Shown: positions 784-61,711, counted from the stretch's first letter. The stretch is 64,000 nucleotides of DNA from a candidate division WOR-3 bacterium (GCA_039801085.1 JBDRTY010000002.1:193339-257338); one strand, 5' to 3'. The notes: generated by a model not told the origin, from the letters alone. Numbers and translations are program-made.

Positions 784-2748
784 TTATTCCCCTGACCGCT
801 GAAACCGCTTAATCTTCTTGATTATCTCCTCGGCCAGCAGCTCCGGCTCAAGCTCTATAGCCTTCTGCCAGTCCCGGACTGCCTGCTCCAGCTTGCCCTG
901 ATCTTCATAGGCGTTTCCGCGGTTGAAATAGGCTTTGGGGTAGTCGGGCTTGAGCTTGATTGCCGTTGAGTAGTCCTGGATTGCTGTGTCCAGCTCGCCC
1001 TTCAGGTAATAGGTGGCTCCGCGGTTGTTATATGCTTCGGGGTCGTCGGGTTTGAGCTTGATTGCCTCGGAGAAGTCCTGGATTGCTGTGTCCAGCTCGC
1101 CCTTTTGGTAATAGGCGTTTCCGCGGTTGTTATATGCTTTGGGGTCGTCGGGTTTGAGCTTGATTGTCTTGGAGTAGTCCTGGATTGCTGTGTCCAGCTC
1201 GCCCTTTTTTGCATAGGCGTTTCCGCGGTTGTTATATGCTTTGGGGTCGTCGGGTTTGAGCTTGATTGCCTTGGAGAAGTCCTGGATTGCTGTGTCCAGC
1301 TTGCCCTGATCTGCATAGGCCACTCCGCGGTTGGTGTAGGCATCGGCGTAATCGGGCTTGAGCTCGATTGCCCGGGTAAGCATTTGTATTTCTGCATCAA
1401 CAAGATTTTTGTCTTTAACCGGTCCTGAAGAATGTTCAATCAGAACTGCGGTTGCCAGCGAAAAAAGGAATTCGGTGTGGCTGGAGTTCAGGTTTGATGC
1501 CTTTGCAATTTTTCCAAGATGATTACGGATGGTTTGGTTGCTGAGCCTCAGCCGGTCGGTTATTATTTTTCGAGATATGAATGGGTGCCAGGTGGAAATC
1601 CGGTTTTGGCTCCGGCTGATCACCCGCTTCCTCTCCAGTTCTGCCAGATTTACCTCATTGTCATAAAGTTCAGTGAAAATGTCCTCGGGATAATCTAAAC
1701 CATATCGGTTGACAATCAGGAGCGGGGTCATCAGCTCCTGCTGTTGGGGTGTGAGCGGATTCCAGAAGTCATCAACCGCCTTATCAAATGAAGCTTTGCC
1801 GGTGCTGACGAGCATCACAAGCATCGGGAATATACCCTGCGCAAGGGCAACCATTTCCGGCTTGCCGCGAAACCTCTTAATATAATCCCCGGCTTCGCTC
1901 TCAGTCAGCTGGAGCTCAAATTTTTCAAAATTATATGGAGCGAGATTTTCCCGAACATTAACCTCCCAGACAGCGGTCTGTTCCACCAGTATCAGAGGGA
2001 TATCAAGGCTTTGAGTATGGATGTTGTTGATCAGGCTTACAACCTCATCCTTATAAAGTGCGACATTATCAATGAAAACCAGTTTCTTCTGACCGTTGAA
2101 CTCCGGCTCCTGCAGATAGTGGAGCGCCTTCTGAGCATCGATTTTGCCGTCGCTGATAAAGGGACAGTACTCCTGCTGAAAAAGGTCATAAGCGAGACGC
2201 ATCATCAGGACCGACTTTCCCGAACCGCTGTTCCCCAGGAGGAGGATGTTTTTACCCTTTTTGATGGTATCCAGAATTTTATCTTTCAGCGCCCGTCTGA
2301 TGTCAAAATTATCAATAATGACATTCCAGGTGGGCTTGAAACCGGAGCAGAACTGCTGTTTGTCTGTTTCTGCCCGGCTCCGGTCAATTGTGCTCAGAAC
2401 TGAGGTCAGCGGTTTCAGCCCGCAGGCGGTAATGTAGGATTTCCATTTTTCAGTCAGCTTGTTATAGTCCTGAGTGTATTGTTCAAACTCCTGTTTCAGT
2501 TGATCCAAATTTTTCTGTTCAAGGCTGATTTTTGATTTTTTGCACTGTTCAAAGAAGGAGTAAACAAGCCAGATTGTGCCCAGAAACAGCGGTTGACCGG
2601 CAGTCGCTGCCGGCACAACAATTTTAAAAAAATTTTCAACAAAGGGCTGGTCCAGACCAAGGGCACTGCCGAGTTTTTCAATGCTGTAAATACCGCTTCT
2701 CAGCGTTGTGGCTATACTTTCCTTCAGCGACTGGAATTCAAAATTCAC
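784..2748 (-). CDS. STAND-like P-loop NTPase with N-terminal hydrophobic segment and coiled coil, mid-protein LuxR/GerE HTH and five or six C-terminal TPR repeats
   Basis: Walker A is LLLGNSGSGKSV, followed by a hhhhD box (KLVFIDNV). A LuxR-type HTH (LSNQTIRNHLGKIAKASNL) aligns to GerE helix 2-3. There are 5-6 consecutive 34-aa TPRs (AYNNRGNAY..GELDTAIQDYS..AIKLKPDDP). A 24-residue hydrophobic stretch (IVVPAATAGQPLFLGTIWLVYSFF) lies near the N-terminus. The gene GC (about 47-52%) is well below the backbone. Confidence 0.75.
   Translation of the reverse strand: MNFEFQSLKESIATTLRSGIYSIEKLGSALGLDQPFVENFFKIVVPAATAGQPLFLGTIWLVYSFFEQCKKSKISLEQKNLDQLKQEFEQYTQDYNKLTEKWKSYITACGLKPLTSVLSTIDRSRAETDKQQFCSGFKPTWNVIIDNFDIRRALKDKILDTIKKGKNILLLGNSGSGKSVLMMRLAYDLFQQEYCPFISDGKIDAQKALHYLQEPEFNGQKKLVFIDNVALYKDEVVSLINNIHTQSLDIPLILVEQTAVWEVNVRENLAPYNFEKFELQLTESEAGDYIKRFRGKPEMVALAQGIFPMLVMLVSTGKASFDKAVDDFWNPLTPQQQELMTPLLIVNRYGLDYPEDIFTELYDNEVNLAELERKRVISRSQNRISTWHPFISRKIITDRLRLSNQTIRNHLGKIAKASNLNSSHTEFLFSLATAVLIEHSSGPVKDKNLVDAEIQMLTRAIELKPDYADAYTNRGVAYADQGKLDTAIQDFSKAIKLKPDDPKAYNNRGNAYAKKGELDTAIQDYSKTIKLKPDDPKAYNNRGNAYYQKGELDTAIQDFSEAIKLKPDDPEAYNNRGATYYLKGELDTAIQDYSTAIKLKPDYPKAYFNRGNAYEDQGKLEQAVRDWQKAIELEPELLAEEIIKKIKRFQRSGE
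900..1350. repeat. Four to five near-identical tandem 102-nt repeats encoding the TPR units of the STAND gene
   Basis: The units match at the nucleotide level (gcgtttccgcggttgttatatgctttggggtcgtcgggtttgagcttgattgcct... repeated with period 102). Spurious ORFs 1002..1439(-) and 1105..1428(+) arise from this repeat. Confidence 0.8.
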
Positions 2749-22209: not shown

Positions 22210-22791
22210 TCAGACGCCGAGCCCTTCCTTGATGAACATTATACCCCAGGAGAGGGTGATCAGTCCCATCAGGGTGGAGACTACCTGGAGCGCGGTCTCG
22301 CCGGTGAAGCGGGTGATGCGTGGTGCCTGCAGGAAGATAGCGAGCGTAACCAGCAGGACAATCAGAATGGCGAGCGCGGTAAGCAGTCTTCCATAGTCAT
22401 GGACGCTGATAATTATGGCGGTGATTGATGCCGGACCGGTCAGAAGCGGGGTGGCGATGAGCGAGGCGATCGCCTTCGCCGATTTCTTTGTGCCCATCAC
22501 CCGTTCCGACCCGGCCTGGCCCAGGGACATCTGGATGCCGAGGATGCCGAGGATGATACCGCCGGCAATTTTGAAGTCGTTGATATTTGTATTGAAAAGC
22601 TTCAGAATGCCCGCGCCAAATACCAGGCAGAGCAGAGAGATCCCGATGGCAACGCTGACCGCCAGAATTGCGGTTCTGCGCTTTTCCTGCGGAGTCATGT
22701 CCGCAGTTGCCCCGAAGAACACCACAAAGCTCAGAAGCGGGTCAAAGATGACAAAAAAGAGAATAATCAGCTGGAGCAGGGTATAGACCAT
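22210..22791 (-). CDS. MarC-family (UPF0056) integral membrane protein
   Basis: It has six TM helices and a MarC-like N-terminus (LIILFFVIFDPL). Confidence 0.75.
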   Translation of the reverse strand: MVYTLLQLIILFFVIFDPLLSFVVFFGATADMTPQEKRRTAILAVSVAIGISLLCLVFGAGILKLFNTNINDFKIAGGIILGILGIQMSLGQAGSERVMGTKKSAKAIASLIATPLLTGPASITAIIISVHDYGRLLTALAILIVLLVTLAIFLQAPRITRFTGETALQVVSTLMGLITLSWGIMFIKEGLGV

Positions 22792-22912
22792 CGTGTAGGT
22801 TAGATTATCATACGCAATCTGAAGTTCAAGTCATGTCATATATAACACAATGAATTGACAAGACAAGAAGGGTAGATTATTATAAAATTAAAAATAAAAG
22901 GAGGTTTTAGCT

Positions 22913-23170
22913 GTGCCTAGGAAATCAGTTAAAAGTTTAGGGATAAACGCCAATCTCAGATGTCTTAAAGTTTATCCCTCAGCTCGTACTAAAAAGCAAA
23001 TTCAGGATCTTCAGACAATAGGTATTAAATTGTCTAGAGATCAAGCTTTTCATTTGGCAAAAGCACTTTTGGCTGCTAGCAAAGCATGGAATGAAATCGA
23101 CATTACTGTCTACAGGTTAGAGCCTAGACAGTCGGACGGGACATATCACGTAACAGTGACATCTAAATAA
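22913..23170 (+). CDS. Small hypothetical protein (85 aa), AT-rich
   Basis: An ORF with a GTG start is preceded by AAGGAGG. No domain is recognised. Confidence 0.4.
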   Translation: MPRKSVKSLGINANLRCLKVYPSARTKKQIQDLQTIGIKLSRDQAFHLAKALLAASKAWNEIDITVYRLEPRQSDGTYHVTVTSK

Positions 23171-23204
23171 TTATTATCTCAAGGAAACTGTTATTTTTTT
23201 TCTA

Positions 23205-23903
23205 GTGATGTGTAGTAATTATGTTAATTATGTATTTAATGATATTCAGTACTGTCTGGTACATCAGCTGATACTGGAGGATAATTTTACTGATGAGCGT
23301 GATATCAGGCTGGTTGCCGGTGGTGACGTGGCGTATGAGAAGAATGGAGAGAGACTGGTGGCTGCGGTTGTGGTCTTTGATCTGAGATTGTTTACGGTTG
23401 TGGAACAGGTGATTTGTGCGGGCAGGGCTGAATTTCCCTATGTTCCGGGATTTCTTTCCTTCCGTGAGGGTCCGGTCCTGCTGATGGCGATCAGGAGGTT
23501 AAAAACCGAGCCGGATGTTTTTCTCTTTGACGGTCAGGGGATCGCCCATCCACGGCGGCTGGGAATTGCGAGCCATCTTGGTGTCCTTCTTGACAGGCCG
23601 GCGATCGGCTGTGCCAAATCCCATCTTTTTGGATTTTATGAGGAGCCGGAAAGGCATAAAGGGGCGTTCAGTTTCATCCGGGACCGCGTGGGTAATGCGG
23701 TCGGGCTGGTTCTGCGGACAAAGGATAACACCCGGCCGGTCTTTGTCTCACCAGGACACAGAGTCAGCGTAAAGATGGCAGGCAAGATTATCCTGCGCTG
23801 TGTGAGCAAATACCGGATACCCGAACCGCTCCGCCAGGCGCACATCAGGGCGCGATCAACTGTCAAGGACTCAGTAGGTTGCATTAAAAATCCAGAAAAG
23901 TGA
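23205..23903 (+). CDS. nfi: Endonuclease V (deoxyinosine 3'-endonuclease)
   Basis: It carries DVAY, FPYVPGFLSFREGP, DGQGIAHPRRLGIASHLG and IGCAKS motifs, colinear with E. coli Nfi. Confidence 0.8.
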   Translation: MMCSNYVNYVFNDIQYCLVHQLILEDNFTDERDIRLVAGGDVAYEKNGERLVAAVVVFDLRLFTVVEQVICAGRAEFPYVPGFLSFREGPVLLMAIRRLKTEPDVFLFDGQGIAHPRRLGIASHLGVLLDRPAIGCAKSHLFGFYEEPERHKGAFSFIRDRVGNAVGLVLRTKDNTRPVFVSPGHRVSVKMAGKIILRCVSKYRIPEPLRQAHIRARSTVKDSVGCIKNPEK

Positions 23904-23939
23904 TTGACAGTGACCCGAAAGCTATTAGTATATTTTGGT

Positions 23940-25553
23940 ATGGCACATCCGGCAAATAAGAGGCAAGCGCAGAGATGTTCTATTTGTCAAAATACGGTTT
24001 ATAATGGACTGGGCAAGCACATCATTAATAATCACGGATATGAGTCATTCAAAAGGATAATATTAAAAGCAAGGACATCTGGGGCTTCAGATGCTGAATT
24101 AGGCCAGCGCTTCGGGATTAATTTGCGTCAGCTTGAAAAAATTATCCTCGAATCCTACGGGTTGAATATTTCCGGATTAGTGCAAGTACAAAAGTCGATA
24201 AAGTGCTTGGAACCTAAAGATTTTAAAGAGGAAACAACAACAGTTTGGAGTTTCAAACAGCGAGGAAATTGGGCAACACATAATGGTAAATACCGGGGTA
24301 ACTGGTCGCCTTATATACCGAGAAATGTAATCTTGAAATACTCAAAGCCGGGGGATTTGGTACTGGACTATTTTGCTGGGAGCGGAACGACAGCAGTTGA
24401 AGCTAAGCTTCTTGGCAGAAGATGTATAGCGATAGATATCAATCCGGCATGCGTTGCGCTTACTAAACAACACCTTGATTTCAGTCTACCTTCAAATTTG
24501 TTTTCTGACAAAATATCGGCTTTTGAGCCCGAGGTTCGAGCAGGTGATGCCAGAAATCTGGGCTGGATGTCTGACGAGAGCGTAGACCTTATTTGCGCTC
24601 ATCCTCCTTATGCGGGGATTATAAAGTATGGTTCGGACATCGATGGTGACCTATCAAACTTGGATATCGATGAATTTCTTTTAGAAATCGGGAAAGTTGC
24701 CCGGGAGAGCTACCGGGTGCTCAAGCCTGGTGGTAAATGTGCGATTTTAATTGGTGATACCAGAAGAAAAAAACACATTCTGCCGCTGGGATTTCAGACA
24801 ATCGATGTTTTCCAGAAAGCCGGATTCAGATTGAGGGAGCTGGTGATTAAGCGCCAGCACAACTGTAAAACTACCGGTTTCTGGTATGATAAGAGCGTGC
24901 AATATAATTTCCTGCTGTTGGCACATGAGTACTTGCCGATTTTCGAGAAAGTTCAGGGATCTTTTCCAGCAGTAATGCGAGAAGCCCGTTCAGCTGCTAT
25001 TTCCTCATATGACTGGACGCACAGAAAGTTCCCCGTTGCTAAAGTTAATGAACTTGAGGTCAGCACAGTATGGACTTTTCAGGAAAAAGTGTTGGAGGAG
25101 CAACTGAATGAAAATGTATTTAAGCGTTATGGGAAAGGTAAAGTCCGGCTGACTGTCTATATTAATCCTCTCCCTAGTAATTCCACCTTTTCGGAATTGA
25201 AGGTTAAGAAAAGTGCCGGGTTGCTGTTTATCAAGGCGAATTCACTCCAGCGACCTGAGTCCAGGGTAGAAGTTGAACAGTATATGAAAACGATAGAGGC
25301 GGTTGTTGATCAGCAATTACCGCATATAGCACCTGATGGTTATCTAGTTATTCAAGTGAAAGACGTCAGGGTTACGGGTTACATCGAACCAATGGCTAAA
25401 AACATCATTAGCTTACTTAAGAAAAATCAGCGATTGTGGTTAAAGGAAATTGTTATTGTTGTCGCTAGTAATCAAGACGAAACGAGTCCGAAATCTGATA
25501 GTGCAGAGCTTGAAATTGTGCACCAATACCTGCTGATATATGATGTAAAATAG
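23940..25553 (+). CDS. DNA methyltransferase (N4/N6 amino-MTase, PF01555-like) with permuted motif order, N-terminal C2H2-like/HTH extension and about 200-aa C-terminal domain
   Basis: Motif I is DLVLDYFAGSGTT (about aa 150). Motif IV is ICAHPPYAG (about aa 232), followed by RVLKPGGKC...W.D...........HE. A degenerate second TVWTF block lies at about aa 380. The N-terminus has CSIC-x10-H-x4-H. The start is ambiguous between the TTG at 23904 and the ATG at 23940. Confidence 0.75.
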   Translation: MAHPANKRQAQRCSICQNTVYNGLGKHIINNHGYESFKRIILKARTSGASDAELGQRFGINLRQLEKIILESYGLNISGLVQVQKSIKCLEPKDFKEETTTVWSFKQRGNWATHNGKYRGNWSPYIPRNVILKYSKPGDLVLDYFAGSGTTAVEAKLLGRRCIAIDINPACVALTKQHLDFSLPSNLFSDKISAFEPEVRAGDARNLGWMSDESVDLICAHPPYAGIIKYGSDIDGDLSNLDIDEFLLEIGKVARESYRVLKPGGKCAILIGDTRRKKHILPLGFQTIDVFQKAGFRLRELVIKRQHNCKTTGFWYDKSVQYNFLLLAHEYLPIFEKVQGSFPAVMREARSAAISSYDWTHRKFPVAKVNELEVSTVWTFQEKVLEEQLNENVFKRYGKGKVRLTVYINPLPSNSTFSELKVKKSAGLLFIKANSLQRPESRVEVEQYMKTIEAVVDQQLPHIAPDGYLVIQVKDVRVTGYIEPMAKNIISLLKKNQRLWLKEIVIVVASNQDETSPKSDSAELEIVHQYLLIYDVK

Positions 25554-25565
25554 AAGGAGGCGATA

Positions 25566-26150
25566 GTGATACATGAACCCAGAGTTGGCGATTTCTGGGG
25601 TAGAGGCCGTTTCCGGAAAAAGATTAGAGAAGTAATTACTCTTTCTAACGGTTGGTATCTGATTAAGACCGATGATTCAAAGTCAGAGCGAGATTTCAAG
25701 GTTAAAGTAATTTTTCAGGTTCAACCTTCAAGGTCGATGACTCCCAAACATGCCCACTTTGCGATTGACTTATATGGCAAAATTTGCGCCGATCAGAGTC
25801 GCGCAAGAAAACTCCTTGATGCGATAATTGAAGTATGGGCCGGCAAGGATGTAAGAGAAGTGATTACTAAATACCAACATGACTGTTACGGACTGCCTGG
25901 ATATCCCCTAGAATATGTCCTTCACGCACTGAACTGGATTTTAGAGCAGGAAGACTTGAATTTTACCGGACGCCCGGCAAGAAAACAGGAGGAGCTGGAC
26001 ATTATTTGTGAAAAGCAGGGAATTAATCTCCTTCCAAGCAGGAAAGGGAGTCACTTGGCGATTGCTTTGCTCTGTGATATTATGAATGGTACGCATCCGG
26101 TTGAGGCACTGCTTAAAGCTAATATCGATGTAGCTCCCCGACTGGCGTAA
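25566..26150 (+). CDS. Hypothetical protein (194 aa), co-operonic with the MTase
   Basis: It has a GTG start with an AAGGAGG SD, 12 nt after the MTase stop. A weak D..D-F-K (PD-(D/E)xK-like) pattern is not convincing. Confidence 0.5.
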   Translation: MIHEPRVGDFWGRGRFRKKIREVITLSNGWYLIKTDDSKSERDFKVKVIFQVQPSRSMTPKHAHFAIDLYGKICADQSRARKLLDAIIEVWAGKDVREVITKYQHDCYGLPGYPLEYVLHALNWILEQEDLNFTGRPARKQEELDIICEKQGINLLPSRKGSHLAIALLCDIMNGTHPVEALLKANIDVAPRLA

Positions 26151-26633
26151 ATGCTGAATATGCGGAGGTCCTGGCAGGAGAAATTAAGGAATAGTAAGGA
26201 TTTGCCTAAGGTGGTTGAAATTACGCCGAAGATGGCGGGAAAATGGGGGACAAAGCCGGGTGATACGGTAGTGATTCCGGCGCCGATTGAGGTTGATGAG
26301 ATTATGAGGATGGTGCCGAAAGGCAGGCTCATCACTATTAATCAGATTCGGGAAATTCTGGCAAAGAGGCATAAGGCAACCATCGGCTGTCCGATTACCA
26401 CCGGTATCTTTGCCGCTATTGCTGCCCGCGCGGCTGATGAGATGGCAAAAGAAGGCAAGCGGGATTTTACCCCTTACTGGCGGACACTGAAACAGGGAGG
26501 AGTGATTAACGAGAAATATCCGGGCGGAGCAGAGGCGCAAAAGAAATTCTTGGAAAATGAGGGGCATAAGGTGGTGAAGAAGGGCAGGAAATTTGCTGTA
26601 TTGGATTATGAGCAGAAATTGCTGCGGTTGTAG
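26151..26633 (+). CDS. MGMT/ATL-fold (O6-alkylguanine-DNA alkyltransferase-like DNA-binding domain) protein lacking the catalytic cysteine
   Basis: Its ATG is 1 nt after the previous stop. It aligns to the Ogt/Ada C-terminal domain: VPKGRLITINQIREIL matches IPCGQVMHYGQLAEQL; AARAAD matches AARAVG; TPYWRTL matches VPCHRVI (Cys becomes Tyr, His becomes Trp); KYPGG matches GYAGG; and KKFLENEGH matches KEWLLRHEG. Confidence 0.55.
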   Translation: MLNMRRSWQEKLRNSKDLPKVVEITPKMAGKWGTKPGDTVVIPAPIEVDEIMRMVPKGRLITINQIREILAKRHKATIGCPITTGIFAAIAARAADEMAKEGKRDFTPYWRTLKQGGVINEKYPGGAEAQKKFLENEGHKVVKKGRKFAVLDYEQKLLRL

Positions 26634-26800
26634 TAAGCGGCAAATCGGGGATCAAAGCGAAAAGACAGACGGGTGGTTTACGCTGGTTGACTAAACCCCT
26701 GTTTTCCTTGCAACCTTAGCGGATTTGAATTAGTCTATTTATTATAGATATAACATTTTGTTTTTCGAGGGTTGGATAATTTCTCAAAAAGGAGCAGACT

Positions 26801-27799
26801 ATGGATGAATTGAAGGACGACATCAGACGAATTCACGAAGAGATCGAGCGGGAGAGTCTGTTTGTCCAGACGCTGACCGCGGAAATCGGCAAGGTGATCG
26901 TCGGTCAGAAGTATCTCGTAGAGAGGCTCTTGGTCGGGCTCTTGGCAAACGGGCATATCCTGATTGAGGGTGTGCCGGGTCTTGCCAAGACCTATGCGGT
27001 CAAAAGTCTGGCGGGCGCAATCAGCGCCCGGTTTCAGCGGATTCAGTTTACACCGGACCTGCTGCCGGCCGATATCATCGGCACCCAGATTTACAATCAG
27101 CGCACCGGCGAGTTTACCGCCCGCAAAGGTCCGGTGTTTGCCAATTTTGTGCTTGCAGATGAGATCAACCGGGCACCGCCGAAGGTCCAGAGCGCACTCC
27201 TCGAGGCGATGCAGGAACGGCAGGTAACGATCGGCGAACAGACCTTCAAACTTGAAGAGCCGTTTCTCGTGCTCGCAACCCAGAACCCGATTGAGCAGGA
27301 AGGAACCTATCCCCTGCCCGAAGCTCAGGCGGACCGGTTTCTGCTGAAGCTGAAAGTTGGTTACCCGACAAAGGAGGAGGAAAAGCAGATTGTTGAGCGG
27401 ATGACAAAGGGAGCAGAGCCGAAGACCGCACCGGTGGTTGATCTTCCGACCATTCTCCGCGCCCGGGAGCTGTGCACCAAGATTTATGTGGATGAGAAGA
27501 TCAAGGATTACATCCTGAATCTGGTCTTTGCCACCCGTTTTCCGAAGGAGCACAACCTTGCTGATCTGGCATCATTGATCCGTTATGGAGCTTCACCCCG
27601 GGCGTCAATCTATCTCCTGACCGCAGCGCGGGCGCTGGCATTCCTCAAACGGCGCGGTTTTGTCATTCCCGAGGACATCAAGGAGCTGGCTTATGATGTC
27701 CTGCGCCACCGGATCATCCTGACCTATGAGGCGGAGGCAGAGGAGCTGACCGCTGATGATATCATCCGGCGGGTGCTGGAAGGCGTTGAGGTCCCGTAG
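26801..27799 (+). CDS. moxR: MoxR-family AAA+ ATPase (first gene of the Bat operon)
   Basis: It has Walker A (GVPGLAKT) and the MoxR-typical N-terminus and length. Confidence 0.9.
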   Translation: MDELKDDIRRIHEEIERESLFVQTLTAEIGKVIVGQKYLVERLLVGLLANGHILIEGVPGLAKTYAVKSLAGAISARFQRIQFTPDLLPADIIGTQIYNQRTGEFTARKGPVFANFVLADEINRAPPKVQSALLEAMQERQVTIGEQTFKLEEPFLVLATQNPIEQEGTYPLPEAQADRFLLKLKVGYPTKEEEKQIVERMTKGAEPKTAPVVDLPTILRARELCTKIYVDEKIKDYILNLVFATRFPKEHNLADLASLIRYGASPRASIYLLTAARALAFLKRRGFVIPEDIKELAYDVLRHRIILTYEAEAEELTADDIIRRVLEGVEVP

Positions 27800-59486: not shown

Positions 59487-59774
59487 TCAGGAGCCGGAAA
59501 CCGGGATGACCGCCGGAACCGGAGTCAGATTCTCAAAATCCACCAGATAGAGTGCGCAGCGAATCCGGCTGTCCGGAAAATCCGGACCGAGGCGCAGCTG
59601 AAGCCGGACTGCGGCGGTGAGCTCGTCAAGATGGTTGTTGATCACCGATTGGGTCGAATCGGCCTTGACCTCACCAATCAGATAATAACATGGAACCGGC
59701 TGTTCGGGGTCAAAAAAGAGGACCTGAAAGGTTTTCATTTTTTTAAATTGCGAGATGGCTGAGATTTTTGCCAT
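59487..59774 (-). CDS. Small hypothetical protein (95 aa) overlapping the 3' end of the nuclease gene
   Basis: It is a GC-rich ORF with no recognisable domain. Confidence 0.35.
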   Translation of the reverse strand: MAKISAISQFKKMKTFQVLFFDPEQPVPCYYLIGEVKADSTQSVINNHLDELTAAVRLQLRLGPDFPDSRIRCALYLVDFENLTPVPAVIPVSGS

Positions 59775-60816
59775 TTAACAATATGCTAAAGTTATTAGAT
59801 TGTGCCTCTTGTTTTAGTAATTTTAAAATATCGCGCTGATGCGGCTTAAGTGCTTGAGGTTTGAATTGACAACCGCTTGTTAGTTTAAGCATAGGGGACG
59901 GTAGATATTTTTGATCCCCGATCCGCACATTTTTAAGATTCACAAGAAGAATCATCTTCAATAACCCATCCTTGATGTCGTCAATAGATGGAATAACGTT
60001 ATTACGGCTGTGCTTGCATTCAATCAACCGTATTTTTCTGTCACGGAGTTCAACTTCATCACAGGTGAAATAATACATCCCCCCAAGGTAATTTCTAATA
60101 GTCAATGTTGCCTTTTTGCCAGAAACTGATTCTTTGGGTTGAATAGTTACGCTTTCTCGATATTGAGCATGCTGAGCCTTGGTCCGTGATGCAGCGATGA
60201 AATTTTCCCGTCCCCTACTTAATTCACTAATTATTTTTTGCGCGCTTTCTGTTGAGTGCATCTGCACCCCAGTTTGTTCAGATATTGTTTTATATGCTCT
60301 TAATGCGCGGTGTGCAATTATGCCAACCTGCTCCAGCTGTTCTAAATTCCAGTGCAAGGCATCGGACTGATATGATAGAAGTTTGTTAATTTCTCGGAGG
60401 ATGTGGTTTATTGCAAAACGCTGGTTTGTAATTTTATTTTTGTAATTTATATTGCGTTCTGCATTATCATAGTAGGAGATTATAACATAAACCCCTAAAA
60501 GACTCATCAAGGAAACGGTATCCCACTGGAGAAAATCCCGGTCACCATCAGCACCCTCATCCTTGTAAACCGGGATTATGGTAATCTTGCGACCCGGGAA
60601 ACTTAATGTATCATATACGCGAGCATAAGGATAAGAGCGGGTTCGTTTTGGTGAAACCCACCAGCTGACCGCTAATTGGTTCTGGCTTTTGAATGTAATG
60701 AGGAAAGCGCCCTGCTGTTTTAACGCTTCGCCAATACTCTGAAACAAGTAAGATTTCAATTCACGGGTAAGATAAGGTTTATATTTAAGTCCGGTGATTT
60801 CAGCTGATACATCCAT
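59743..60816 (-). CDS. Putative Type II restriction endonuclease (PD-(D/E)xK candidate)
   Basis: It overlaps the upstream MTase gene by 17 nt. It is AT-rich (about 38% GC). A candidate catalytic triad is ...TCDEVEL...IECKHS. No other domain was found. Confidence 0.5.
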   Translation of the reverse strand: MDVSAEITGLKYKPYLTRELKSYLFQSIGEALKQQGAFLITFKSQNQLAVSWWVSPKRTRSYPYARVYDTLSFPGRKITIIPVYKDEGADGDRDFLQWDTVSLMSLLGVYVIISYYDNAERNINYKNKITNQRFAINHILREINKLLSYQSDALHWNLEQLEQVGIIAHRALRAYKTISEQTGVQMHSTESAQKIISELSRGRENFIAASRTKAQHAQYRESVTIQPKESVSGKKATLTIRNYLGGMYYFTCDEVELRDRKIRLIECKHSRNNVIPSIDDIKDGLLKMILLVNLKNVRIGDQKYLPSPMLKLTSGCQFKPQALKPHQRDILKLLKQEAQSNNFSILLNGKNLSHLAI

Positions 60817-61711
60817 ACTTTCCGCCTTTGCGTATTATTATTTCAAATGTATCACCATGATGGTCCATTGTCATTTGTCCTGAAAAACCTAACTTTTTTG
60901 ATATTATCGGTAAAAGCGATTTCTTGATTTCAATTCCAATGCTATTACGACCCAACTGCCGTGCAACCTTCATTGTTGTTCCACTGCCGACAAATGGGTC
61001 AAGCACGGTTTCACCAACATAAGAGAAGAGTTTGATAATTCGGTAGGGCAGTTCCTCTGGGAAGGCGGCAATTTCCTTTTCAAGGGGAGAGCCGGGGAGG
61101 ACATTTACCATTTCCCAGAGAGTCATGTACCACTTGTTATCAGAAAATTCTTTTAAATTGATCCGCGATGCTTCTCTGATTTCACGAGGTATTGTTTGAT
61201 AATTAAATTTCCCTTTTTGAAATATAATAATGCTTTCAAGCAGGTTGTCGGGATAAAAATACATGGGGTATGGATTTTGCAGTATTACGCCACTTCTTCG
61301 GCTAATTCGCAAATAGCCGTCAGGTTTTTTCCAAATGATCCGGTCTCGGTATCGGAAACCAACGCTTTGGAATATTTTAATTGCATCAGCGACAATGGGA
61401 AATTTTTCGCCGTTAACAAGCATGTCATCAATGTTTAACACCGCAATCCGACCTTCTTGGAGTACGCGAAAAGTTTCTTTGGCCATTCTTCTGAGTACCC
61501 CCAAATACTGGCCATAGTTTTTAAATAACCCTTTGTAATCAAATGGAGCATTGAAATAAGGTGGCGATGTAACCATTAGATGCACACTTTGGTCGGGGAT
61601 TTCGGGCATTGCCATACAGTTGCCGATGATTAGTTTATGATGGGTTTTGGGGTAAATGTGATCAAACTCAAACTTTGGGGAAACGGTATTATTCTTAGTT
61701 TTAATGTCCAT
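60800..61711 (-). CDS. Beta-class N4/N6 DNA methyltransferase (PF01555)
   Basis: Motif IV (MVTSPPYFN) is N-terminal and motif I (VLDPFVGSGTT) is C-terminal. The middle region is RVLQEGRIAVLNIDD...IIWKK. It is AT-rich. Confidence 0.85.
   Translation of the reverse strand: MDIKTKNNTVSPKFEFDHIYPKTHHKLIIGNCMAMPEIPDQSVHLMVTSPPYFNAPFDYKGLFKNYGQYLGVLRRMAKETFRVLQEGRIAVLNIDDMLVNGEKFPIVADAIKIFQSVGFRYRDRIIWKKPDGYLRISRRSGVILQNPYPMYFYPDNLLESIIIFQKGKFNYQTIPREIREASRINLKEFSDNKWYMTLWEMVNVLPGSPLEKEIAAFPEELPYRIIKLFSYVGETVLDPFVGSGTTMKVARQLGRNSIGIEIKKSLLPIISKKLGFSGQMTMDHHGDTFEIIIRKGGKYGCIS

What the first reader, a model, noticed from the sequence alone, without database searches (positions are those of the whole stretch)
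22792..26700. Low-GC island with a methyltransferase-centred three-gene operon
Immediately after marC the GC drops from above 60% to about 40%, and it recovers only at the Bat operon promoter. Besides a small 85-aa ORF and nfi, the island carries an operon with no spacing between genes: a 12-nt gap with SD, then a 1-nt gap. It encodes a DNA amino-methyltransferase with unusual architecture, a 194-aa unknown, and an MGMT/ATL-fold protein that cannot be a suicide alkyltransferase because the Cys is replaced by Tyr. No cognate classical restriction enzyme is recognisable. A methyltransferase plus a modified-base flipping 'reader' fold plus an unknown protein, all on foreign DNA, fits a candidate modification-based or modification-sensing defence or epigenetic module that I cannot map to a described system.
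Basis: partly seen in the sequence, partly recalled or inferred. Interest (0 to 1): 0.7.

Follow-up and report, generated by a model that had tools for sequence, protein, structure and literature searches.

The report
Mobile methylase pair with unknown-fold partner
The "three-gene operon" is really a mobile two-gene restriction-modification-like cassette (a DNA methylase plus a 194-residue partner that resembles no known protein fold) that landed next to an unrelated, widespread DNA-repair-type gene; the uncharacterised partner is the only unusual part.

Summary
The sequence features are real: a low-GC stretch (44% against 57%) between marC and the Bat operon, carrying ORF85, nfi, a DNA amino-methyltransferase, a 194-aa unknown (X194) and an ATL/MGMT-fold protein with Tyr in place of the catalytic Cys.

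In 65 genomes carrying an X194 homologue, the same methyltransferase family lies adjacent in every intact case (47/47) and in all four gene arrangements. The ATL-like gene and nfi co-occur only in the closest relative, at the same locus. The ATL-like gene belongs to a large stand-alone family (more than 7,600 proteins). None of 80 other loci carrying it has this methyltransferase or X194. A more distant WOR-3 relative has it at the same locus without the cassette.

The working unit is therefore a mobile M+X194 pair with its own promoter-like site, behaving like a Type II R-M system. X194 is never intact where the methyltransferase is demonstrably absent, and it is often decayed.

X194 has no hit in Pfam, NCBIfam, PADLOC, PHROGs or PDB sequences. 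A confident model (pLDDT 93) matches no solved fold. It is probably a restriction enzyme of a new family, but this is untested. The methyltransferase is 63% identical to the third gene of the Clostridium thermocellum MboI-type (GATC) cluster, so GATC is a weak guess at specificity.

The parts
22210..22791 (-). marC, the left conserved flank (not part of the cassette)
   Evidence: PF01914 E 3.1e-28. It is 79-90% DNA-identical in WOR-3 relatives L006 and L012, and homology stops at its start codon.
22913..23170 (+). ORF85, a small basic protein of unknown function. It is separate cargo found only in this genome.
   Evidence: No hit in Pfam, PADLOC, NCBIfam or PHROGs. It is absent from L012 and L006 and is a singleton cluster. 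GC is 38.8%. A TTGACA-17-TATTAT site lies at 22855-22883, and AGGAGG precedes the GTG start.
23205..23903 (+). nfi (endonuclease V), a neighbour that is not part of the cassette
   Evidence: PF04493 E 2.9e-72; NF008629 240.8 bits against a cutoff of 230. GC is 51%. It is present in L012 only, absent from the L006 locus, and absent from the other 64 X194 loci.
23904..23931 (+). Promoter-like site of the cassette (TTGACA-16-TAGTAT), ending 8 nt before ATG 23940
   Evidence: It matches 10 of 12 consensus positions. This is a consensus match only; function is inferred.
23940..25553 (+). DNA amino-methyltransferase (537 aa). N-terminal C2H2-like motif plus a weak HTH; permuted N6_N4 core (motif I, then HPPY); C-terminal degenerate duplicate of the core.
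   Evidence: PF01555 114 bits in 2 stretches; PADLOC MTase_II PDLC03376 E 2.1e-94. Closest solved structure is TTHA0409, 2zie. Architecture. The NCBI record gives 537 aa, 'DNA methyltransferase'. The core is 63% identical to the C. thermocellum P0426 gene that follows a D12 MTase and a DpnII-family gene.
25554..25565 (+). 12-nt spacer with an AGGAGG Shine-Dalgarno sequence before X194
   Evidence: Read directly from the sequence.
25566..26150 (+). X194, a 194-aa partner of the methyltransferase and the putative restriction enzyme of an undescribed family
26151..26633 (+). ATL/MGMT-fold protein (PYWR instead of PCHR), a resident stand-alone gene and not part of the cassette
26801..27799 (+). 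moxR, the first gene of the Bat operon and the right conserved flank
   Evidence: AAA_3 E 1.6e-66. Syntenic in L006 and L012.

Best explanation
A horizontally acquired two-gene cassette (methyltransferase 23940-25553 plus X194 25566-26150, with its own promoter-like site) sits in a hypervariable spot between marC and the Bat operon. It lies between two unrelated DNA-repair-type genes, nfi and an ATL-like gene.

[quoted passage not shown] The methyltransferase methylates an exocyclic amino group (N6-A or N4-C) in a short target and so protects host DNA. X194, translated from the same mRNA via its AGGAGG site, attacks unmethylated copies of that target in incoming DNA.

Shown: the pairing, its mobility, the asymmetric decay, and the lack of any known fold in X194.

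Inferred: that X194 damages or cleaves DNA. A candidate active site is the conserved polar set H62, D68, E129, D130 and N132. That the target may be GATC is also inferred.

The ATL-like gene is a bystander, probably a sensor of alkylated bases. It is co-transcribed only because the cassette landed directly upstream of it.
For: (1) Pairing. Of 65 genome loci with an X194 homologue, 47 have intact X194, and all 47 have an intact MTase of the same family adjacent. The arrangements are 34 M>X, 4 X>M, 5 convergent and 4 divergent. Even a 32%-identical, Zn-ribbon-bearing relative lies next to the same MTase family.

(2) Asymmetric decay. The only three intact X194 genes without a detected MTase lie at contig ends. 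X194 is disrupted next to an intact MTase in L063, L068 (3.2-kb insertion) and L074 (frameshifts). Both genes are decayed in L055, L056, L065 and L072. This is the pattern expected of a toxic R gene and a protective M gene, as described for the PabI family in PMC10273834 sections 4.4-4.5 (section headings seen; those sections were not read).

(3) Mobility. The pair occurs in unrelated housekeeping contexts in Caldarchaeum, Thermodesulfovibrio, WOR-3, Bathyarchaeia, Chloroflexota and others. GC is 43% against 57%. The pair is absent from the orthologous locus of relatives L006-L008, and homology resumes exactly at the ATL gene.

(4) The MTase is a bona fide Type II-type DNA MTase.

(5) X194 is basic (family median pI 9.5). 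It has invariant His, Asp, Glu, Asn and Arg residues.

(6) Internal control. PADLOC recognises the REase of a second, classical R-M system in the same window at E 1.5e-97. The silence on X194 is therefore not a tool failure.
Against: - No nuclease motif or fold is detectable in X194, so its activity is inferred only from genomic association.
- X194 is slightly more conserved than its MTase (56-60% against 46-54% identity in the same genomes). This is unusual for restriction enzymes.
- No target-site avoidance specific to carrier genomes could be shown.
- Some 'decayed' copies may be MAG assembly errors.
- The same MTase family also occurs with DpnII-type enzymes and in more than 6,700 proteins, against 425 X194 homologues. 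The MTase therefore does not need X194.
Confidence: 0.65

Rival explanations
1. X194 is not a nuclease. It is a non-catalytic partner of an epigenetic methyltransferase, such as a specificity, targeting or regulatory factor, or a reader of the methyl mark. On this reading the pair is a mobile epigenetic module without restriction.
Against: Accessory factors are not expected to be selectively inactivated while the MTase survives, nor to be absent whenever the MTase is absent. The MTase family works without X194 elsewhere. Free variation of gene order and orientation is typical of R-M pairs. The invariant His/Asp/Glu/Asn cluster looks catalytic.
Confidence: 0.17
2. One reading: MTase, X194 and the ATL-fold protein form one three-component, modification-sensing defence system in which the ATL-like protein flips and reads a modified base.
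For: In this window the genes follow each other with gaps of 12 nt and 0-9 nt. The same order is kept in relative L012. The ATL fold is a base-flipping fold (established knowledge of Atl1 and MGMT).
Against: The trio is found in 1 of 65 X194 loci, and that locus is orthologous by descent; there the ATL gene is frameshifted to 118 aa. None of 80 ATL loci has M or X194, and there is no recurrent neighbour (at most 8 of 80). ATL is present without the cassette at the same locus in L006-L008. There is no PADLOC hit.
Confidence: 0.04
3. The whole 22792-26700 stretch is a single island acquired in one event, with nfi, the cassette and ATL acting as one DNA-damage-processing operon.
For: All genes are on the same strand and closely spaced. 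nfi and ATL are both DNA-repair-type genes. L012 shares nfi-M-X-ATL.
Against: GC is heterogeneous: 39, 51, 42, 44 and 49.5%. Three WOR-3 genomes carry different cargo combinations at this spot. The ATL gene is 91% DNA-identical to that of L006, while the flanks are 69-82% identical. This implies a separate history. Promoter-like sites lie in front of ORF85 and of the MTase.
Confidence: 0.1

Closest known systems
PabI restriction-modification system (R.PabI/M.PabI, Pyrococcus abyssi)
   Same: It is a low-GC, recently inserted pair of a recognisable DNA methyltransferase and an ORF with no similarity to known restriction enzymes, in a thermophile. It was found by comparing related genomes. Its R gene is often decayed (PMC10273834).
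MboI/DpnII-type GATC systems with two methyltransferases (C. thermocellum Cthe_1511-1513; Fusobacterium vincentii cluster)
   Same: The third gene of these clusters belongs to the same permuted MTase family. Core identity is 63% and 56%, conserved end to end, and the N-terminal C2H2-like motif is present in C. thermocellum. GATC m6A is the motif assigned to that C. thermocellum cluster (PMC6791906).
   Different: Those clusters use a DpnII-family (PF04556) endonuclease and an additional Dam-like MTase. Here the MTase is alone with X194, and there is no DpnII homologue. That P0426 equals Cthe_1513 and methylates GATC is inferred from gene order, not shown.
Alkyltransferase-like proteins (S. pombe Atl1, V. 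parahaemolyticus vpAtl, E. coli YbaZ)
   Different: The motif is PYWR (Tyr, then Trp) instead of PW(H/F)R. There is an extra ~45-residue N-terminal extension. The Pfam score is below the gathering threshold. No binding data exist.
Classical Type II R-M in the same window (59743-61711, minus strand)
   Same: It is a low-GC two-gene cassette with an N6_N4 MTase and an overlapping downstream gene.
   Different: Its endonuclease is recognised at once (PADLOC REase_II PDLC03572, E 1.5e-97). X194 is not recognised.

Membership tests
Type II restriction-modification system | A DNA methyltransferase with amino-MTase motifs | tested here: met
   PF01555 at 114 bits (GA 26.7); PADLOC MTase_II E 2.1e-94; motifs FAGSGTT and HPPY.
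Type II restriction-modification system | An adjacent gene that co-occurs and co-moves with the MTase regardless of order or orientation | tested here: met
   47 of 47 intact X194 loci have the MTase adjacent, in four arrangements, in unrelated contexts across bacteria and archaea.
Type II restriction-modification system | The R gene is not maintained without the M gene, and the R gene is preferentially inactivated | tested here: met
   No intact X194 is found with demonstrable absence of M. Three loci have disrupted X194 with intact M. Caveat: these are MAG assemblies.
Type II restriction-modification system | The partner carries a recognisable nuclease domain (PD-(D/E)XK, HNH, GIY-YIG, PLD or half-pipe) | tested here: not met
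Type II restriction-modification system | Site-specific cleavage that is blocked by the cognate methylation | not testable with these tools
   This requires biochemistry. Palindrome-avoidance analyses were inconclusive.
Beta-class N6_N4 DNA methyltransferases (PF01555 canonical order) | Motif IV (D/S)PPY lies N-terminal to motif I FxGxG | tested here: not met
   Motif I (residue ~159 of the 549-aa ORF) precedes HPPY (~233). PF01555 matches in two swapped stretches. It is a circularly permuted relative.
O6-alkylguanine-DNA alkyltransferase (MGMT/Ogt/Ada-C) | An acceptor cysteine in the PCHR motif | tested here: not met
   The motif is an invariant PYWR across 32 family members. Tyr aligns with the Trp of vpAtl PWFR.
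Alkyltransferase-like (ATL) proteins | MGMT C-terminal-domain fold without the cysteine | tested here: met
Alkyltransferase-like (ATL) proteins | Binds O6-alkylguanine lesions and channels them to NER | not testable with these tools
The canonical Trp is replaced by Tyr-Trp, so the ligand may differ.
   1 of 65 X194 loci (the orthologous locus in the nearest relative) and 0 of 80 ATL loci.
GATC-specific (MboI/DpnII-type) modification | The methyltransferase methylates GATC | tested here: inconclusive
   The core is 63% identical to the MTase that follows the D12-MTase and DpnII genes in C. thermocellum. GATC is the motif assigned to that cluster. There is no carrier-specific GATC depletion (MWU p = 0.115).

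The most novel reading that the evidence does not exclude
X194 founds a new structural family of restriction enzymes, made of an SH3/Tudor-like beta domain plus a helical domain with a conserved His/Asp/Glu-Asp/Asn cluster. The family has spread by horizontal transfer among thermophilic bacteria and archaea. It may be a thermostable GATC-type enzyme, and it may use chemistry other than the classical nuclease folds, as PabI turned out to do.
Probability: 0.5. Interest if true: 0.6.

Novelty: new variant of a known kind. Interest (0 to 1): 0.45.

Why it matters
Restriction enzymes fall into very few structural superfamilies. The last new one, the PabI half-pipe, was found by this same kind of co-mobility argument, and it revealed a different chemistry (base excision).

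X194 is a compact family: 425 homologues and 83 clusters at 50% identity. It is strongly conserved and restricted to thermophiles. Its confident predicted structure matches nothing solved, and it is annotated 'hypothetical' in public records.

If X194 is the cognate restriction enzyme, it would be a new fold and a potential thermostable reagent. It would also be a blind spot in current defence-system HMM libraries: PADLOC scores this locus as a lone methyltransferase.

The negative result also matters. Tight gene spacing on foreign DNA wrongly suggested a three-component system, and comparative genomics separates the resident ATL-like gene from the cassette.

Tried and rejected
(1) Recognition-site inference from palindrome avoidance, attempted three ways:
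- In the window, many 4-mers are depleted, which is not specific.
- Carrier loci were compared with control loci. GATC was not significant, and CTAG, GTAC and CATG were all lower in carriers.
- Within the cassettes themselves there was no site-free pattern.
All three were inconclusive.

(2) Flanking direct or inverted repeats around the cassette: only short chance-level matches.

(3) Searches for X194 in plasmid, phage and IMG/VR viral collections: no matches.

(4) Remote homology.
- An HMM of the family against 1.84 billion representatives returned only the family itself and a few distant relatives without informative domains. These carried weak zinc-ribbon hits only.
- A 1,916-aa repeat protein with a sub-threshold BrxL_N hit was judged a chance or low-complexity match.

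(5) Foldseek against afdb50 was unavailable.

(6) A literature search for an HPPY motif gave nothing relevant.

(7) I considered that X194 could be a controller (C) protein. I rejected this because it has 194 aa, no HTH, and invariant catalytic-type residues.

(8) I considered nfi as a partner (AP-site or lesion processing downstream of a glycosylase-type enzyme). I rejected this because nfi accompanies X194 only in the nearest relative.
Full report
**What is in the sequence**

The window comes from a candidate division WOR-3 bacterium; X194 is 100% identical to MEO0021571.1. Between marC (22210-22791, minus strand) and moxR, the first gene of the Bat operon (26801-27799), lie five plus-strand genes:
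- ORF85 (22913-23170)
- nfi (23205-23903)
- a DNA methyltransferase
- a 194-aa ORF, called X194 here (25566-26150)
- a 160-aa ORF (26151-26633)

The stretch 22792-26700 is 44.4% GC, against 56.7% for the rest of the window. It is not uniform: ORF85 is 39%, nfi 51%, the methyltransferase 42%, X194 44% and the 160-aa gene 49.5%. The flanks are 52-58% GC, not above 60%.

There are 12 nt containing AGGAGG before X194. The X194 stop codon TAA is directly followed by ATG. Homology to relatives begins at a second ATG at 26160, so that gap may be 9 nt.

The TTG at 23904 that opens the longest methyltransferase ORF is the first base of a TTGACA-16-TAGTAT promoter-like site. The NCBI record and the closest relative both start the protein at ATG 23940, giving 537 aa.

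**The proteins**

*nfi.* It is a clear endonuclease V (PF04493, E 2.9e-72).

*The methyltransferase.*
- It is a genuine Type II-type DNA amino-methyltransferase (PF01555 at 114 bits; PADLOC MTase_II PDLC03376, E 2.1e-94).
- It is circularly permuted relative to the beta class: FAGSGTT precedes an invariant HPPY.
- Its N-terminal ~90 residues carry a C-x2-C...H-x4-H motif and a weak HTH.
- Its C-terminal ~200 residues are a degenerate copy of the second half of the core (BLASTP 3e-6; weak PF01555 match).
- Archaeal homologues have only the ~320-aa core.

*The 160-aa protein.*
- It scores below the Pfam threshold for PF01035 (21 bits against 27).
- Its family has an invariant TPYWRT motif where MGMT has PCHR and ATLs have PW(H/F)R.

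*X194.*
- It has no hit in Pfam, NCBIfam, PADLOC or PHROGs at permissive thresholds.
- It has no PDB sequence match, either as a single sequence or as a profile.
- Its AlphaFold model is confident (pLDDT 92.9, pTM 0.89): a four-strand N-terminal beta domain followed by seven helices.
- No Foldseek match has E below 0.1.

**Is the trio a unit?**

No. X194 has 425 homologues at 55-85% identity. They come from WOR-3, Thermodesulfovibrio, Thermodesulfobacterium, Chloroflexota, Caldarchaeum, Bathyarchaeia, Aenigmarchaeota and others.

In the first five contexts inspected, X194 always directly followed a methyltransferase of the same family and was never near an ATL-like gene.

A scan of one genome per species gave 65 loci.
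- The methyltransferase core is adjacent in all 47 loci where X194 is intact. The arrangements are 34 M>X, 4 X>M, 5 convergent and 4 divergent.
- nfi and the ATL-like gene appear in one locus only, L012.
- L012 is the orthologous marC-Bat locus of the nearest relative (flanks 85-92% identical). There the ATL gene is frameshifted to 118 aa.

The ATL-like family is very large, with at least 7,695 proteins at about 70% identity across many phyla.
- It sits alone in variable contexts.
- In 80 metagenomic loci, none has the methyltransferase, X194 or nfi within 4 kb.
- The most frequent neighbour occurs in only 8 of those 80 loci.

The more distant WOR-3 relatives L006-L008 decide the question. They have marC, a 216-aa unknown, the ATL-like gene, a 272-aa unknown and then moxR. 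There is no methyltransferase or X194, and DNA homology with the window begins at 26160, immediately after the X194 stop. The tight X194-ATL junction is therefore an insertion scar, not evidence of a shared function.

**What the pair is**

The behaviour of M+X194 is that of a Type II R-M cassette.
- The pairing is conserved while gene order and orientation vary freely.
- It is inserted into unrelated housekeeping neighbourhoods in both domains of life.
- Its GC is low.
- The genes are translationally coupled, by a 4-nt overlap in Caldarchaeum and by an SD sequence here.
- Decay is asymmetric. The only intact X194 genes without a detected methyltransferase are at contig ends.
- X194 is disrupted next to an intact methyltransferase by a 3.2-kb insertion in L068, by frameshifts in L074 and by 5' truncation in L063. 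Both genes are decayed in four loci.
- A relative only 32% identical, with a zinc ribbon in place of the beta domain, still sits beside the same methyltransferase family.

The family is basic (median pI 9.5). Its invariant polar residues are T59-P60-x-H62, D68, Y70, K72, Q128-E129-D130-x-N132, R136 and R159. The core TPxH...DxY...QEDxNY survives in the distant relatives.

This is the same reasoning that led to the discovery of R.PabI: co-mobility with a methyltransferase, no similarity to known enzymes, low GC, a thermophile (PMC10273834).

As an internal control, a second low-GC cassette in the window (59743-61711, minus strand) is a classical R-M. PADLOC recognises its endonuclease at E 1.5e-97.

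My best explanation, at about 0.65 confidence, is that X194 is the cognate restriction enzyme of a new family. The catalytic step is inferred, not shown.

**Specificity**

The methyltransferase core family is much larger than the X194 family, with more than 6,700 proteins.
- In Clostridium thermocellum, a 63%-identical member is the third gene after a Dam-like D12 methyltransferase and a DpnII-family endonuclease.
- This matches the cluster Cthe_1511-1513 that Riley et al. assign to GATC, an MboI-type activity (PMC6791906).
- Fusobacterium vincentii has the same arrangement, with a 56%-identical member.
- The cores align end to end without a variable insert.

GATC m6A is therefore a reasonable guess, at roughly 0.4. 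Palindrome-avoidance tests could not confirm it.

**Rivals**

X194 might instead be a non-catalytic partner or reader of an epigenetic methyltransferase, at about 0.17.
- For this reading: there is no nuclease signature, and X194 is conserved slightly more strongly than the methyltransferase.
- Against it: the decay asymmetry and the independence of the methyltransferase family from X194.

The three-gene model is left at about 0.04. A single-event 'repair island' comprising nfi, the cassette and ATL is left at about 0.1. Heterogeneous GC, three different cargo sets in three WOR-3 genomes, and the anomalous 91% identity of the ATL gene to L006 all argue against it.

**Novelty and verdict**

There is a modification-based, defence-like module, but it has two genes and fits R-M logic. 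The ATL-fold protein is an unrelated resident gene.
- The remaining point of interest is X194: an uncharacterised, thermophile-restricted, strongly conserved methyltransferase partner with no known fold, absent from defence HMM libraries.
- I rate this a new variant of a known kind, with interest 0.45.
- If X194 proves to be a new-fold restriction enzyme (probability about 0.5), it would merit about 0.6.

Noticed in passing
window 59743-61711 (minus strand): A second low-GC (~40%) island holds a classical Type II R-M. It has a 303-aa SPPY-type N6_N4 methyltransferase (PF01555 E 9e-44; PADLOC MTase_II) that overlaps a 357-aa endonuclease (PADLOC REase_II PDLC03572, E 1.5e-97).
   Followed up: partly
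window 784-2748 (minus strand): A 654-aa STAND NTPase (nSTAND_NTPase5) with C-terminal TPR repeats lies in another low-GC patch (~45%). It may be a defence or signalling NTPase.
   Followed up: partly
window 26160-26633 versus L006 8001-8474: The ATL-like gene is 91% DNA-identical to that of the distant WOR-3 relative L006. The flanking marC, moxR, DUF58 and batA genes are only 69-82% identical. The nearer relative L012 is 88% identical in this gene. This suggests recent exchange of the gene between lineages.
   Followed up: partly
marC-Bat interval: window 22792-26800; L012 2535-7258; L006 7209-9497: The interval is a hypervariable cargo spot. ORF85 is found only here. L012 has a 335-aa ORF (weak DUF7102 hit). 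L006 has 216-aa and 272-aa ORFs (low GC, no family hits). All are of unknown function.
   Followed up: partly
L012 5586-6053: The ATL-like gene of the closest relative carries a 2-nt length difference that truncates the ORF to 118 aa. This is either a pseudogene or a MAG error.
   Followed up: no
window, whole 64 kb: Several 4-bp palindromes are strongly depleted outside the island: ACGT 0.17, CTAG 0.21 and GGCC 0.30 observed/expected. Nine of the window's 15 CTAG sites lie inside the 3.9-kb island. This fits un-ameliorated foreign DNA in a genome under heavy restriction pressure.
   Followed up: partly
L068 5001-8717 (Candidatus Calescibacterium nevadense): The X194 homologue is split by an insertion of about 3.2 kb (residues 6-103 and 129-193 are 3.2 kb apart). 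The adjacent methyltransferase is intact. The inserted element was not examined.
   Followed up: no
window 23940-24200 and 24954-25550; P0426 N-terminus: The long-form methyltransferase has an N-terminal C2H2-like zinc motif plus a weak HTH, also present in the C. thermocellum homologue. It also has a C-terminal degenerate pseudo-methyltransferase domain. These may serve autoregulation and dimer mimicry. Archaeal short forms lack both.
   Followed up: partly
window 22855-23170: ORF85 (pI 10.1) has a near-consensus promoter-like site (TTGACA-17-TATTAT, 11 of 12) and an AGGAGG SD. It is a singleton in a collection of 15 billion proteins.
   Followed up: partly
L081 2354-5720 (Fusobacterium vincentii NZ_CP084075.1, listed as a 2.1-Mb 'plasmid'): A Dam-like MTase, a DpnII-like REase, an Mrr-like protein and a permuted MTase form one cluster. 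The record is almost certainly a chromosome mislabelled as a plasmid, and it carries essentially no annotation in PLSDB.
   Followed up: no
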